Shown here: in pieces, positions 1,239 through 52,682 of the stretch
Position numbering within the stretch: the stretch's first letter is position 1
Layout: each line of letters starts with the position of its first letter
Source of the DNA: a virus
Taxonomy: Duplodnaviria > Heunggongvirae > Uroviricota > Caudoviricetes
Virus record (IMG/VR): IMGVR_UViG_2721755676_000004
Strand: one strand, 5' to 3'
DNA: 54,213 nt
Notes under the pieces: model-generated
The model's input: the letters and a program-made list of their open reading frames with translations, nothing else
Database searches by the model: none
Told to the model about the DNA's origin: nothing
Translations under genes and position numbers: made by a program

Positions 1239-1814
1239 CTACGGCAGTGCTGGCCATTCAATATCCTGTGAAGTTGACGTATCAACACGGTTCAGCAATA
1301 CCCGATACTTTTTCCATGCTTCCAGCAACGAGATTTCTTCCTCCGTTGCAATTTCCAGATCTGCAGCATCCTGAAGCGGCGCAATATGCTCACTGGCTAC
1401 CTGCATCAGGTTGTTTTTTGTTTCTTCCGCCTCCCGGATCCGGAACAGTTTTTCTGCTTCCGTATCCTTCACCCAGGCTGTGCCGTTCCACTTCTGAAAC
1501 TCCCCTTCCGGCGATAACCAGGTAACATTTTCCGGTAACGGACCGAGTTCAGAAATAAATAACGCGTCGCCGGAAGCCACGTCATAAACCGTTTTACCCC
1601 GATGATCTTCAACGAGATGCCACGATGCCTCATCACTGTTGAAAACAGCCACGAAGCCTGCCGGAATATCTGGCGGTGCAATATCGGTACTGTTTGCTGG
1701 CAGACCTGTATGAGGCGGAATATATGCATCACCTTCACCAATAAATTCATTAGTTCCGGCCAGCAGATTATAAATTGTTATGGTCCGTGGTTGTTCACTC
1801 ATTCTGAATACCAT
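1239..1814 (-). CDS. tfaR: Tail fibre assembly protein Tfa
   Basis: 191 aa; translation resembles lambdoid Tfa proteins; start overlaps stf stop (ATGA); immediately downstream of stf. Confidence 0.85.
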
Positions 1815-32756: not shown

Positions 32757-33344
32757 TTTTCCTCACATATGTCATATAGTAAAGGATTATATATACCGTT
32801 GTTTTGGACGCTCAAACAGCGAATCAGATCAAATAAAACGCACATTTGTTAACATTTACACAAAGTCTGCGTGGGATATTCTGAAAGAATATCCATAATG
32901 TGGATAGAATCTATTGAAGTGCATGGTGCCGGGTGCCTCCCGGTGAACAAAATGTTCGTGATACCTGTCGGCGACAGAAAAGGTTAATGGTATCACCCCA
33001 CCGCACAGGGGGATTCACCATGCAGGAGTTTTCTTAGCAAACTCACTGCGCGCCCGGCAACTCCCAACCACATAAAATGCGGAGTTTGTGGTATTTATGC
33101 ATATAACTCGCAGGAATTATCTTAAAAAACTGATGTCGATCCGGATTAAAAAGAAGCAGGTCATCATCAGATGACTGGAAAAAAGGAAAACAAAAAATAC
33201 TCATCATACAGTTTTGATTGCAGGGATGAGCCTGCTATGCACAATATGCAGAATATAAGCAAGATAAAAATATGCAGGCATATTATTTCGGATTTTGTTA
33301 TTAACACAACCTTTTTAATAATCATTTGGCATACAATAAACCAG

Positions 33345-33373: not shown

Positions 33374-33693
33374 GGTCAATACAAAGGATGCTTCGTCTTT
33401 ATTATAGTAATCTGAGGCGTCGGGTGTCTTGTATCAGACAACATATTGTCCCGCTAAACAGCGAATTACAAACCACCCTGCAATGATCTCTCATCTCATT
33501 TTATATGAGTTGACGACATCAGGATAACGCATCATCAGCCCCTGCCAAGAAATATCAAAACTCCCGCCAGCAATGTGTTATCACAATATTGTAAAAAAAA
33601 CACAGCACCGAAACTATAACTGGTCTCTGTTATAATTTGGAGCAGAAAGACCAGTTGCCCAACTAGCAGCATTCTCCCCTGCTTTCCTGACGT

Positions 33694-33722
33694 AAAAAAA
33701 CCGCATTAAGCGGTTTTTTTAC
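33694..33722. terminator. Bidirectional terminator-like hairpin downstream of Q-like gene
   Basis: AAAAAAACCGCATTAAGCGGTTTTTTT: short GC stem flanked by A-run and T-run. Confidence 0.45.
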
Positions 33723-33800
33723 GATGTCCATGTCTGCAATCCGCCTCGCGATACAGCTTTGCGAAGCATAGCAAAATTGAAGCAGTTTATACGTAAGAAA

Positions 33801-35229: not shown

Positions 35230-35509
35230 TTCTCAATCTCTCGATGGCGCAGCGCAGCAGATGCCAGTTGTTCAGGCTGACGAATAAAGTATAAATAAAC
35301 TGGCTATGGTGTAAAGCCCCACATAGCATGAACAAACACTACATATCAAATAGCTGGTACAAGGATAGAAATACGACATTTATTATTAAAAACGATTAGA
35401 TAAATTACATTTTAATGTTATGCAAAAGTTCTTTTTTATCATAACATTTCAATAAAAGCATTACAGATGCAATCATCCCGTCATCATCAATTATTTAAGG
35501 TGGTTAAAC

Positions 35510-35596
35510 ATGGAAAATAACAAGTTCGCACATCTCGCTCCTTTTTTATCCGTAATCCTTTTCGCTTGTTGTTTTATATGGGCATTATTTTTATAA
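35510..35596 (+). CDS. Small hydrophobic peptide (28 aa), candidate small membrane protein
   Basis: ATG preceded by AAGGTGG at optimal spacing; MENNKFAHLAPFLSVILFACCFIWALFL; lies in a very AT-rich spacer. Confidence 0.3.
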   Translation: MENNKFAHLAPFLSVILFACCFIWALFL

Positions 35597-36042
35597 AGTA
35601 GCCACATGATAAGTTGCTGGAATCATATTTCCCACTCAAGTCATTAACATTTGATAAGATATATCTAAAAGGACGCCTTTACATTATTTATGTGTATATA
35701 ATTTATTTATATACACAGTAAAGGTATCCTGGGAAAATACTTATCGTTAAAAAATACATCATAAATAATCAAGCTGAAATTTCAGAACACAACTAATACA
35801 CACAATAAGGTTCAGTAACAATAATCTATGTGGACTACATCGAGATTTTTTGATTAAACTTTAATAACTTATTCCTAACACACAGAATGCATAAACTAAA
35901 AGTAAAACAAATAGTTATACGAAAAACAACCATATTTATTATATCTTCTCCTCTAATCAACATATCAATTATGTGTTTCATAACAGCTTGACATAACCCT
36001 CAAAAACACGCATTTATAATGCATGTTTTTGAGGAGGTGGTT

Positions 36043-52285: not shown

Positions 52286-52480
52286 ATGAGATATGACAAT
52301 GTTAAACCATGTCCATTTTGTGGTTGTCCATCAGTAACGGTGAAAGCCATTTCAGGATATTACCGAGCGAAGTGTAACGGATGCGAATCCCGAACCGGTT
52401 ATGGTGGAAGTGAAAAAGAAGCACTCGAAAGATGGAATAAACGAACCACTGGAAATAATAATGGAGGTGTTCATGTATAA
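52286..52480 (+). CDS. ralR: RalR (Lar) restriction-alleviation / DNase toxin protein
   Basis: 64 aa from MRYDNVKPCPFCGCPSVTV; Cys4 motif. Confidence 0.7.
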   Translation: MRYDNVKPCPFCGCPSVTVKAISGYYRAKCNGCESRTGYGGSEKEALERWNKRTTGNNNGGVHV

Positions 52481-52682
52481 AATTACCGCCACTATTGAAA
52501 AGGAAGGTGGCACTCCTACTAACTGGACAAGATATTCAAAATCTAAACTAACGAAATCAGAATGCGAAAAAATGCTCTCAGGTAAAAAAGAAGCAGGCGT
52601 TTCCAGAGAGCAGAAAGTAAAACTGATAAATTTTAATTGCGAGAAACTTCAGTCCTCGAGAATTGCATTGTATTCAAATTAA
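52473..52682 (+). CDS. Small protein (69 aa), YdaC-like
   Basis: GGAGGTG SD before ATG at 52473; overlaps ralR end. Confidence 0.5.
   Translation: MYKITATIEKEGGTPTNWTRYSKSKLTKSECEKMLSGKKEAGVSREQKVKLINFNCEKLQSSRIALYSN

What the first reader, a model, noticed from the sequence alone, without database searches (positions are those of the whole stretch)
35510..35596. Strongly ribosome-bound 28-codon hydrophobic ORF in the AT-rich spacer
An ATG with an AAGGTGG Shine-Dalgarno at ideal spacing opens a 28-codon ORF (MENNKFAHLAPFLSVILFACCFIWALFL) that would form a single TM helix, in an otherwise non-coding, extremely AT-rich ~0.8-kb stretch at the prophage/island boundary. Its size and hydrophobicity resemble type I toxin peptides or small membrane regulatory proteins.
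Basis: seen in the sequence. Interest (0 to 1): 0.4.

Follow-up and report, generated by a model that had tools for sequence, protein, structure and literature searches.

The report
Unannotated prophage gene for tiny membrane peptide
The 28-codon reading frame is very probably a real, never-annotated gene for a tiny membrane-spanning peptide, carried as a self-contained ~220-base unit by prophages in about one in five E. coli genomes; what the peptide does is still unknown.

Summary
The ORF is exactly as described: 35510-35596 (+), an AAGGTGG Shine-Dalgarno 6 nt upstream, in an 813-nt spacer of 27-33% GC.

It is not a chance ORF. Related copies occur in 1174 of 5426 complete E. coli genomes, including CFT073 and 042, and in Shigella flexneri, E. 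ruysiae, induced phages and more than 120 IMG/VR prophage contigs. Of 176 copies, 174 keep ATG, 28 codons and the stop. One is cut by IS1 and one lies at a contig edge.

Three lineages differ heavily at synonymous sites (dS 0.6-1.3) but dN/dS is only 0.06-0.3 (permutation P=0.00045).

Homology starts about 130 nt upstream, at a nearly invariant 46-nt AT-rich block, and stops at the stop codon. At least four different downstream contexts follow: hokD, the IetAS defence system, the window's spacer plus a DUF1971 gene, and a tail-fibre region. So the unit is mobile and autonomous.

It lies inside a Rac-type prophage, opposite to the early-right operon, not at a true prophage edge.

It matches no Pfam, NCBIfam, PHROG, PADLOC or Rfam family, and no RefSeq record annotates it.

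A type I toxin role is possible but unsupported. No conserved antisense RNA gene could be shown.

The parts
35380..35425 (+). A 46-nt AT-rich block (TTATTATTAAAAACGATTAGATAAATTACATTTTAATGTTATGCAA) that is nearly invariant. It forms the left end of the mobile unit, about 130 nt upstream of the ATG. It probably holds promoter or UP-element sequence, or another regulatory element.
   Evidence: Homology of the most divergent copy (L079, different flanking genes) begins here. Only 2 differences per 46 nt separate lineages whose ORFs have dS of 0.6-1.3. The block was present at a fixed distance (129-135 nt) in all 158 copies with enough upstream DNA. An anchor inside the block always came with an intact ORF, 150 of 150.
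35383..35411 (+). Candidate promoter A: TTATTA-17 nt-TACATT, predicted start near 35418. This is an inference.
   Evidence: It is one of the two sigma-70-like candidates found at the same place in all five lineages, at 7.5-8.2 bits. It falls below the threshold of the consensus scan.
35415..35447 (+). Conserved ATGTTATG, then a 17-nt variable spacer of fixed length, then CATAACAT. This is either candidate promoter B (-35 TATGCA 35419-35424, -10 TAACAT 35442-35447, start near 35454) or an 8-bp hairpin at the 5' end of the mRNA.
   Evidence: The arms are conserved and the 17 nt between them vary in sequence but never in length. They are 100% pairable, with only wobble-type changes. Those changes also fall on the two least important -10 positions. 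Covariation is not above the controls.
35497..35503 (+). Shine-Dalgarno AAGGTGG, 6 nt before the ATG.
   Evidence: Read in the sequence. The duplex is -8.4 kcal/mol here and -3.9 to -5.8 kcal/mol in the other lineages (UAAGGUGAG, UAAAGUGAG), always at the same spacing.
35510..35596 (+). The 28-codon gene. Its product is MENNKFAHLAPFLSVILFACCFIWALFL: a polar N-terminal octapeptide followed by a 20-residue hydrophobic segment that runs to the C-terminus.
   Evidence: Searches show the ORF. 174 of 176 copies are intact, with 16 peptide variants. Invariant residues are M1 E2 N3 N4 H8 P11 L13 S14 I16 L17 F18 W24 A25 F27 L28. dN/dS is 0.06-0.3, against about 1 in the other frames. Permutation P=0.00045.
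35584..35612 (-). Promoter-like site on the opposite strand (TTATCA-17-AATAAT) that would drive an RNA antisense to the ORF. Consensus match only; function not shown.
   Evidence: Found by the consensus scan. The total number of promoter-like sites in the region does not exceed shuffles (4 found, 5.2 expected). Not conserved in the IetAS context, by reading the sequence.
35490..35516 (-). Second opposite-strand promoter-like site overlapping the start codon: -35 TTTCCA (complement of 35511-35516), -10 AATAAT (complement of 35490-35495). The spacer is only 15 nt in the window.
   Evidence: In the CFT073, 042 and IetAS lineages it reads TTTCCA-16-CATAAT or TATGAT and passes the scan. In the window the spacer is sub-optimal, so the scan does not report it.
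35597..36042 (.). AT-rich spacer specific to the window-type context. It is not part of the conserved unit, and no intrinsic terminator for the small gene is found in it.
   Evidence: Homology to the other lineages ends at 35597. The spacer and the DUF1971 gene are shared at 94% with phage ON470614. No + strand terminator was found.

Best explanation
This is a genuine protein-coding gene that annotation has missed.

The unit. It is a self-contained unit of about 217 nt (35380-35596). It comprises a nearly invariant AT-rich upstream block, a leader of roughly 55-90 nt, a Shine-Dalgarno sequence and 28 codons. Lambdoid prophages of Escherichia and Shigella carry it in the nin region, at the edge of a slot that holds variable cargo. 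It faces against the phage early-right operon.

Inferred expression. The unit is transcribed from its own weak sigma-70 promoter inside the conserved block, as a moron is. It would therefore be made in the lysogen. Converging early-right transcription would oppose it after induction.

The product. The peptide has a short polar N-terminus, MENN(K/N)xAH, followed by a 20-residue hydrophobic segment that ends the chain. It most likely sits as a single helix in the inner membrane.

What is shown and what is inferred.
- Shown here: the ORF, its SD, its conservation, purifying selection on the peptide, and the module boundaries and mobility.
- Inferred: the transcription start, translation, membrane insertion and lysogen-specific expression.

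Likely activity. Its activity in the membrane is unknown. My best guess is a small membrane effector that benefits the lysogen, either by modulating or excluding something at the inner membrane or by acting as a toxin-like abortive peptide. The type I-toxin version is the less likely of the two on present evidence.
For: Conservation and integrity:
- 1174 of 5426 complete E. coli genomes match, and the distant matches cover only the leader plus the ORF.
- 174 of 176 copies are intact. The one disruption is an IS1 insertion; the other copy lies at a contig edge.
- An anchor outside the ORF gave 150 of 150 intact copies.

Coding signature:
- Variable columns by codon position are 4/10/17.
- dN/dS is 0.06-0.3 with dS 0.6-1.3.
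- The other frames give about 1. The wobble-sharing antisense frame is the exception, but it carries internal stops.
- On a star tree, 15 changes are synonymous and 9 nonsynonymous, permutation P=0.00045.
- The SD is conserved at fixed spacing.
- The hydrophobic window averages 2.46, and the invariant residues include polar ones.

Autonomy:
- The left boundary is at the 46-nt block and the right boundary is at the stop codon.
- Homology breaks at those points in at least 4 downstream and 3 upstream contexts.

Orientation and setting:
- The unit faces against the nin/Q genes in every annotated context.
- A terminator follows it in the hokD and IetAS contexts.
- It is inside a Rac-type prophage.
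Against: - There is no expression, translation or localisation data for any copy.
- The + strand promoter candidates are weak, at 7-8 bits and below the scan threshold.
- No + strand terminator is seen in the window context.
- The family is narrow. A GTDB species scan found only Shigella flexneri and E. ruysiae. No allele with a different Pro-11 codon was found among viral contigs. All evidence therefore rests on three main lineages.
- Some synonymous sites are unusually invariant (GCTCCTTTTTTATC; TGGGCATTATTTTTATAA). Part of the conservation may therefore act at the RNA or DNA level.
Confidence: 0.8

Rival explanations
1. The unit is a new type I toxin-antitoxin (or abortive-infection) module. 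The 28-aa peptide damages or depolarises the inner membrane. An antisense RNA holds down its synthesis. That RNA would start at the promoter-like site overlapping the start codon, or within the 3' end of the ORF, and run through the leader and the conserved 46-nt block. This would explain why the block is more conserved than the coding sequence.
For: - The size and hydrophobicity fit.
- It is a mobile, autonomous unit on prophages.
- It sits beside hokD/sok and IetAS in a toxin/defence slot.
- Opposite-strand promoter-like sites TTTCCA-16-YATRAT occur in three lineages, and TTATCA-17-AATAAT occurs in the window.
- A small hairpin plus T-run lies on the minus strand at the left end of the block, with one perfect compensatory variant.
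- The upstream block is ultra-conserved.
- The SD is partly paired in predicted folds, with P(unpaired) 0.23-0.52.
Against: - No match to any known toxin family or antitoxin RNA.
- In the window lineage the antisense promoter has a 15-nt spacer and the hairpin is degraded to 3-4 of 5 pairs.
- The predicted minus-strand RNA has no consistent fold or strong terminator across lineages.
- Promoter-like sites are no more frequent than in shuffles.
- The SD is strong and not clearly sequestered.
- The invariant polar N-terminus suggests a specific partner rather than generic membrane damage.
Confidence: 0.3
2. The conservation is mainly non-coding. The segment would be a regulatory or recombination 'boundary' sequence of the lambdoid backbone: a promoter, a terminator of the early-right operon, or a linker that promotes cargo exchange. 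The ORF would then be incidental.
For: - The most conserved part is the non-coding 46-nt block.
- Several synonymous sites in the ORF never vary.
- The unit lies exactly at the edge of a cargo slot where homology breaks.
- A minus-strand hairpin plus T-run could be an early-operon terminator.
Against: - A non-coding element does not predict a 4/10/17 codon-position bias.
- It does not predict dN/dS of 0.06-0.3 in one frame only, nor permutation P=0.00045.
- It does not predict an unbroken 28-codon frame with no indels while the leader has indels.
- It does not predict a conserved ATG, SD and TAA in 174 of 176 copies.
- The unit also occurs in a tail-fibre context, away from the nin region.
Confidence: 0.1
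3. It is a chance ORF in AT-rich DNA with no function.
For: AT- and T-rich DNA readily encodes Phe/Leu/Ile-rich short ORFs. The spacer holds nine ATG ORFs of 20-60 codons. A second hydrophobic one on the other strand looks neutral.
Against: An ORF with this SD and hydrophobicity arises in 0.2% of simulated spacers. All the comparative evidence above also argues against chance.
Confidence: 0.03

Closest known systems
Type I toxins of enterobacteria with a short hydrophobic peptide (ShoB, Ibs, ZorO, TisB, DinQ; Fozo et al. 2010, PMC2887945, and my own knowledge)
   Same: Peptide of 19-35 aa with one predicted TM helix. In ShoB and Ibs, as here, it ends in hydrophobic residues. The gene is small enough to be missed by annotation, has a long conserved 5' region, and occurs on mobile or strain-specific DNA. 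ZorO, like this gene, is absent from K-12.
   Different: No sequence relationship. No demonstrated or convincingly predicted antisense RNA. The SD is strong and not clearly hidden. Toxicity is untested.
Small inner-membrane proteins of E. coli found through RBS models and conservation (YohP, YncL, YnhF, MgtS, PmrR, AcrZ; Hemm et al. 2008, my own knowledge). Also the new intergenic small membrane ORFs of CFT073 (bioRxiv 10.64898/2026.09.28.754932).
   Same: About 30 aa, a single TM segment, a good SD, detectable only by comparative or ribosome-based methods, and function usually through a membrane partner. CFT073 carries a copy of this gene at NC_004431.1 1338563-1338649 (-).
   Different: This gene is prophage-borne and mobile rather than core. 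It is unrelated in sequence. I could not check whether it is among the 15 small membrane ORFs of that study, because the coordinates of SMP10-14 are not in the text and the supplements are not held.
Phage morons (lambda bor and lom, HK97 gp15; my own knowledge of Hendrix/Juhala)
   Same: An autonomous transcription unit inserted between phage genes. It is AT-rich, faces against or independently of the flanking operon, is followed by a terminator in two contexts, and is found in several different phage contexts.
   Different: It is far smaller than described morons. The promoter is only predicted and weak. No terminator is seen in the window context.
hok/sok (hokD) of Qin-type prophages
   Same: Neighbour in most copies. 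The small gene converges on hokD and shares its terminator hairpin.
   Different: Not homologous. The window has no hok or sok. In K-12 Qin the slot next to hokD holds rem instead.

Membership tests
Protein-coding gene (generic criteria) | Start, stop and length kept across diverged copies, with no frame-breaking indels | tested here: met
   174 of 176 copies have ATG, 28 codons and a stop. One is cut by IS1 and one is at a contig edge. With an anchor outside the ORF, 150 of 150 were intact.
Protein-coding gene (generic criteria) | Purifying selection on the encoded peptide in this frame only | tested here: met
   dN/dS is 0.06-0.3, against about 1 in the other frames. The wobble-sharing antisense frame has internal stops. 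Permutation P=0.00045.
Protein-coding gene (generic criteria) | Ribosome-binding site at proper spacing | tested here: met
   The duplex is -8.4 kcal/mol in the window and -3.9 to -5.8 kcal/mol in the other lineages, at fixed spacing.
Protein-coding gene (generic criteria) | Direct evidence of translation | not testable with these tools
   No Ribo-seq or proteomics data are accessible. The supplementary list of the CFT073 study is not held.
Type I toxin-antitoxin system | Small hydrophobic peptide with a predicted TM helix | tested here: met
   28 aa; the 19-residue Kyte-Doolittle window averages 2.46; alignment.
Type I toxin-antitoxin system | Antisense or partly complementary small RNA gene with its own promoter and terminator | tested here: inconclusive
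   Promoter-like sites exist on the minus strand, but they are lineage-specific and no more frequent than in shuffles. The minus-strand hairpin is weak and degraded in the window lineage. No consistent fold was found. No Rfam family matches.
Type I toxin-antitoxin system | Homology to a known toxin family (Hok, Ldr, Ibs, ShoB, TisB, DinQ, ZorO and others) | tested here: not met
   No NCBIfam or Pfam match. The best hits have E of 0.03-0.1, to unrelated signal-peptide-like stretches. No PADLOC match.
Type I toxin-antitoxin system | Toxicity on overproduction, relieved by the RNA | not testable with these tools
   This needs an experiment.
Type I toxin-antitoxin system | Toxin mRNA folded so that the SD or standby site is hidden | tested here: inconclusive
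   Predicted P(unpaired) of the SD is 0.23-0.52, and the folds differ between lineages. RNA covariation is not above the controls.
Phage moron | Independent unit between phage genes, found in different phage contexts | tested here: met
   The same ~220-nt unit occurs next to DUF1367 or another nin gene on one side and hokD, IetAS or DUF1971 on the other. It also occurs in a tail-fibre region.
Phage moron | Own promoter | tested here: inconclusive
   Two weak candidates are conserved in all lineages. Neither passes the consensus scan.
Phage moron | Own terminator | tested here: inconclusive
   A hairpin with a T-run follows on the + strand in the IetAS context. It is shared with the converging gene in the hokD context, where the + strand T-run is poor. 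None was found in the window.
Lipoprotein or secretory signal peptide | Lipobox [LVI][ASTVI][GAS]C followed by a mature domain | tested here: not met
   The window reads LFAC, but other variants read FVLC, VFCC and FAGC. The chain ends 7-8 residues later. The weak lipoprotein and Rz1-like hits are below cut-off.
Leader peptide or attenuator | A fixed downstream gene whose expression it controls | tested here: not met
   The downstream sequence differs completely between contexts and is convergent in most.

The most novel reading that the evidence does not exclude
The unit is a new, very compact type I toxin-like or abortive-infection module. It would be a 28-aa membrane peptide controlled by antisense transcription, either from a dedicated small RNA running through the ultra-conserved 46-nt block or from the phage early-right operon itself. 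It would mark one edge of a defence and toxin cargo hotspot (hokD, IetAS) in lambdoid prophages. It would act in lysogen protection or prophage maintenance.
Probability: 0.3. Interest if true: 0.55.

Novelty: new member of a known kind. Interest (0 to 1): 0.42.

Why it matters
About a fifth of complete E. coli genomes, including well-studied pathogens (CFT073, 042, Shigella flexneri), carry a conserved gene that no annotation lists. None of the seven peptide variants looked up, the window's among them, is in a collection of about 15 billion proteins.

At 87 nt including the stop it is below the 90-nt floor of common gene callers (my own knowledge of Prodigal), and it is absent from K-12. That explains why it was missed.

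Its alleles are as diverged at silent sites as E. coli-Salmonella orthologues (my own knowledge for the comparison). The peptide has therefore been kept for a long time in the phage gene pool.

It sits at the edge of a slot where prophages swap toxin and defence cargo. It is a ready candidate for small-protein studies: exclusion, membrane modulation or toxin. Its 46-nt upstream block is an unexplained, highly constrained element.

Tried and rejected
- The search for related loci and the search for homologous proteins, with the peptide and with the alignment.
- Structure prediction and the representative-protein search need at least 30 aa, so I did not try them.

Searches that found nothing:
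- Exact look-ups of seven peptide variants.
- Sequence-string searches of the literature.
- A scan for diverged alleles with another Pro-11 codon.
- A PDB profile search.
- tblastn against plasmids returned only two records, both mislabelled chromosomes.

RNA structure in the leader:
- The 8-bp hairpin and the SD-flanking stem are pairable. However, covariation is not above the shuffle controls, and the third hairpin is lineage-specific.
- I therefore claim no RNA structure.

Antisense small RNA:
- There is no consistent fold or terminator.
- The left-end hairpin CGCTT/AAGCG has one perfect compensatory variant but is degraded in the window lineage.

Readings rejected:
- Lipoprotein signal peptide, because the lipobox is not conserved.
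- Programmed -1 frameshift at the in-phase T_TTT_TTA, because the -1 frame has dN/dS of about 1 and a variable end.
- Leader peptide for the DUF1971 gene, because the downstream context varies.
- A truncated 5' fragment of a longer gene, because the stop and last codons are the same in all contexts and no longer homologue exists in phages.

Papers read:
- The CFT073 Ribo-seq preprint, which does not give the coordinates needed.
- The Pas sRNA preprint, which concerns other prophage regions.

Full report
**Observation**

The ATG is at 35510, 28 codons follow, and the TAA is at 35594-35596. The peptide is MENNKFAHLAPFLSVILFACCFIWALFL.

AAGGTGG lies at 35497-35503, 6 nt before the ATG. Its predicted duplex with the 16S rRNA 3' end is -8.4 kcal/mol, about the first percentile of all 20-mers in the spacer.

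The intergenic stretch 35230-36042 is 813 nt with GC 0.27-0.33. The best 19-residue Kyte-Doolittle window averages 2.46.

From one sequence alone the finding is unusual but not compelling. In 1000 composition-matched simulated spacers, 4.4% held an ATG ORF of at least 25 codons with an SD of -7 kcal/mol or better. Only 0.2% also had a TM-like window. 'Strongly ribosome-bound' is an expectation, not an observation.

**Where it is**

The window is E. coli chromosome. The flanking genes on the minus strand are DUF1367, DUF1364 and a Q-type antiterminator, then lysis genes and trkG.

Downstream on the plus strand come DUF1971, MFS, GGCT, LysR, DUF2254 and BCCT genes. After those come DUF977, a replisome organiser, recT, ralR, xisR, intR and ttcA. 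Rfam finds RalA at 52479-52657 and STnc100 at 32865-33053.

So this is a Rac-type prophage. The ORF lies inside it, between the nin/Q region and a cargo block at about 36.4-43.7 kb, after which phage sequence resumes.

A sequenced phage, ON470614, carries the ORF, the AT-rich spacer and the DUF1971 gene at 94% identity. 'Prophage/island boundary' is therefore only partly right.

**Relatives**

No RefSeq record annotates anything under the match. A sensitive blastn of 221 nt around the ORF hit 1174 of 5426 complete E. coli genomes.
- 463 genomes have the window-type context.
- The others match at about 80% identity over only window ~35475-35597. That is the leader, SD and ORF, ending at the stop codon.

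In CFT073, 042 and strain EA13 the match is an intact 28-codon ORF, MENNKSAHYAPFLSVILFVLCC(V/A)WALFL. It lies between a nin-region gene and hokD, converges on hokD and shares its terminator hairpin. K-12 has rem in that slot and lacks the ORF.

Degenerate pattern scans found it on more than 120 IMG/VR prophage contigs. Among one genome per GTDB species, only Shigella flexneri and Escherichia ruysiae had it, plus two chance hits. Four phage records carry it.

**Is it coding?**

Integrity. Across all DNA fetched, 174 of 176 homologous places keep ATG, 28 codons and a stop. One is cut after codon 16 by an IS1 insertion and one lies at a contig edge. A 16-nt anchor upstream of the ORF, which is blind to ORF integrity, returned 150 related loci, all intact.

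Variation. There are at least 18 DNA alleles and 16 peptide variants. Invariant residues are M1 E2 N3 N4 H8 P11 L13 S14 I16 L17 F18 W24 A25 F27 L28. Variable columns fall 4/10/17 on codon positions 1/2/3.

Selection. Between the three main lineages (window type, CFT073/042 types, and the copy on L079), dS is 0.6-1.3, dN is 0.06-0.19 and dN/dS is 0.06-0.3. The other frames give about 1. The one exception is the antisense frame that shares wobble positions. It has internal stops in most alleles and no conserved start or end.

On a star tree there are 25 changes: 15 synonymous, 9 nonsynonymous and 1 mis-scored inside a doubly changed codon. Moving the same changes to random sites gives 7.1 +/- 2.2 synonymous, P=0.00045.

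The leader has indels between lineages; the ORF has none. The SD is kept at the same spacing in all lineages, though it is weaker outside the window type. I conclude that the peptide is under purifying selection.

**The unit and its boundaries**

The most divergent copy (L079) lies next to a 992-aa tail-fibre-like gene and has unrelated flanks. Its homology begins at CTTATTATTAAAAG, about 130 nt upstream of the ATG, and ends just after the stop codon.

In every other context, homology also breaks within a few bases of the stop codon. What follows is one of:
- the hokD terminator;
- a bidirectional terminator and the IetAS defence system (IetS E=1.4e-298, IetA E=8.9e-143; all 15 such loci with enough DNA);
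- the window's AT-rich spacer.

The first 46 nt of the unit (window 35380-35425) differ at only 2 positions between lineages whose silent sites are near saturation. The block sits 129-135 nt from the ATG in all 158 copies with enough upstream DNA.

Next come ATGTTATG, 17 nt of variable sequence but fixed length, and CATAAYAT. A variable leader and the SD follow. The unit is thus about 217 nt, self-contained and mobile between phage contexts. In all annotated contexts it faces against the nin/Q genes.

**Transcription signals (inference only)**

The consensus scan finds no + strand promoter upstream of the ORF. A position-weight scan finds two weak candidates at the same place in all five lineages:
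- TTATTA-17-TA(A/C)ATT, start about -92;
- TATGCA-17-TAA(C/T)AT, start about -55.

The pattern of conserved box, fixed-length variable 17 nt, then conserved box suits the second candidate, with the AT-rich block acting as an upstream element. The only variation in CATAAYAT falls on hexamer positions 3-4.

The same boxes can also pair as an 8-bp hairpin with only wobble-type changes. Covariation is not above the controls, so I cannot choose between these readings.

On the minus strand there are promoter-like sites:
- TTTCCA-16-YATRAT overlaps the start codon in three lineages. The spacer is 15 nt in the window.
- TTATCA-17-AATAAT lies at 35612-35584.

There is also a small minus-strand hairpin plus T-run at the left end of the block. 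These sites are no more frequent than in shuffles. The hairpin is degraded in the window lineage. The predicted minus-strand RNA has no consistent fold.

The SD is neither clearly exposed nor clearly hidden in predicted folds.

**Comparison with known families**

There is no Pfam, NCBIfam, PHROG or PADLOC match. The best E-values are 0.03-0.24, to signal-peptide-like stretches. There is no Rfam family over the unit in four contexts and no PDB match.

None of seven peptide variants is in a collection of about 15 billion proteins. No paper holds the sequence.

A 2026 preprint reports Ribo-seq of CFT073, with 15 intergenic small membrane ORFs, six of them new. The text gives coordinates only for SMP3, SMP7 and YohO, and the supplements are not held. 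I therefore cannot tell whether the CFT073 copy (NC_004431.1 1338563-1338649, minus strand) is among them.

Fozo et al. 2010 (PMC2887945) describe the type I families and the ZorO discovery. Nothing there matches this peptide.

**Interpretation**

The best-supported reading is a real small gene for a single-pass membrane peptide, carried as a moron-like unit (confidence 0.8). The orientation implies expression in the lysogen and opposition by early-right transcription after induction. That step is inferred from gene order and general phage biology.

What the peptide does is open.
- The type I toxin reading (0.3) fits the size, the mobility, the neighbourhood of toxin and defence cargo, and the ultra-conserved upstream block. 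It lacks a convincing antisense RNA and any homology.
- A mainly non-coding element (0.1) does not explain the frame-specific selection.
- A chance ORF (0.03) is very unlikely on the comparative evidence.

**Verdict**

The finding is a new family within a known kind: small hydrophobic proteins encoded by prophages. It is missed by annotation because it is 87 nt long and absent from K-12. Interest is moderate. It is a solid, testable candidate with one unexplained feature, the 46-nt block, but it is not a new kind of system.

Noticed in passing
window 35597 onward; L002 4109-4400; L007 3603-7050: The position just after the small gene's stop codon is a variable cargo slot of lambdoid prophages. 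It holds hokD/sok (with relBE in one strain), the IetAS anti-phage system (all 15 loci of that class with enough DNA), or the window's AT-rich spacer plus DUF1971 and a 7-kb block of MFS, GGCT, LysR, DUF2254 and BCCT genes.
   Followed up: partly
L204 2516-2580 (E. coli F1053, NZ_OY757949.1): The only disrupted copy seen. The ORF is cut after codon 16 by an IS1A end, and the prophage is deleted up to recE.
   Followed up: yes
window 35835-35981 (-): A second hydrophobic small ORF in the same spacer: 48 aa, or 32 aa from an internal ATG with an SD of -6.4 kcal/mol. Phage ON470614 annotates a shorter (43-aa) hypothetical protein on the same strand, apparently at this position. Its variants are mostly nonsynonymous and some have a premature stop, so it is probably not a gene.
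   Followed up: yes
window 35315-35288 (-); L002 3835-3808; L007 3329-3302: A good promoter-like site (TTTACA-16-TATACT, 10 of 12) on the minus strand just upstream of the first nin-region gene. It is conserved even where that gene differs (DUF1367 versus a 92-aa protein).
   Followed up: no
window 35988-36042: A perfect TTGACA at 35988-35993, and a 12-bp imperfect palindrome AAAAACACGCAT-TTATA-ATGCATGTTTTT at 36002-36030. The palindrome ends in a T-run just before the GAGGAGG SD of the DUF1971 gene. It could be an operator or an attenuator.
   Followed up: no
window 35540-35548: An in-phase T_TTT_TTA heptamer (codons 11-13), the classic -1 slippery pattern. The -1 frame shows no conservation (dN/dS about 1, variable end), so it is probably just Phe/Leu coding.
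   Followed up: yes
window 52479-52657 (-), 32865-33053 (-), 1273-1471 (-): Rfam matches above gathering score: RalA (antitoxin RNA of RalR), STnc100 near the lysis genes, and IS009.
   Followed up: no
window 33639-33767: Weak isrK-like matches on both strands (E 0.16-0.39, below gathering score) next to the Q-type antiterminator gene.
   Followed up: no
window 35537-35550 and 35579-35596: Within the ORF, GCTCCTTTTTTATC and TGGGCATTATTTTTATAA are almost invariant even at silent sites, while other silent sites are saturated. This hints at an overlapping RNA- or DNA-level constraint.
   Followed up: partly
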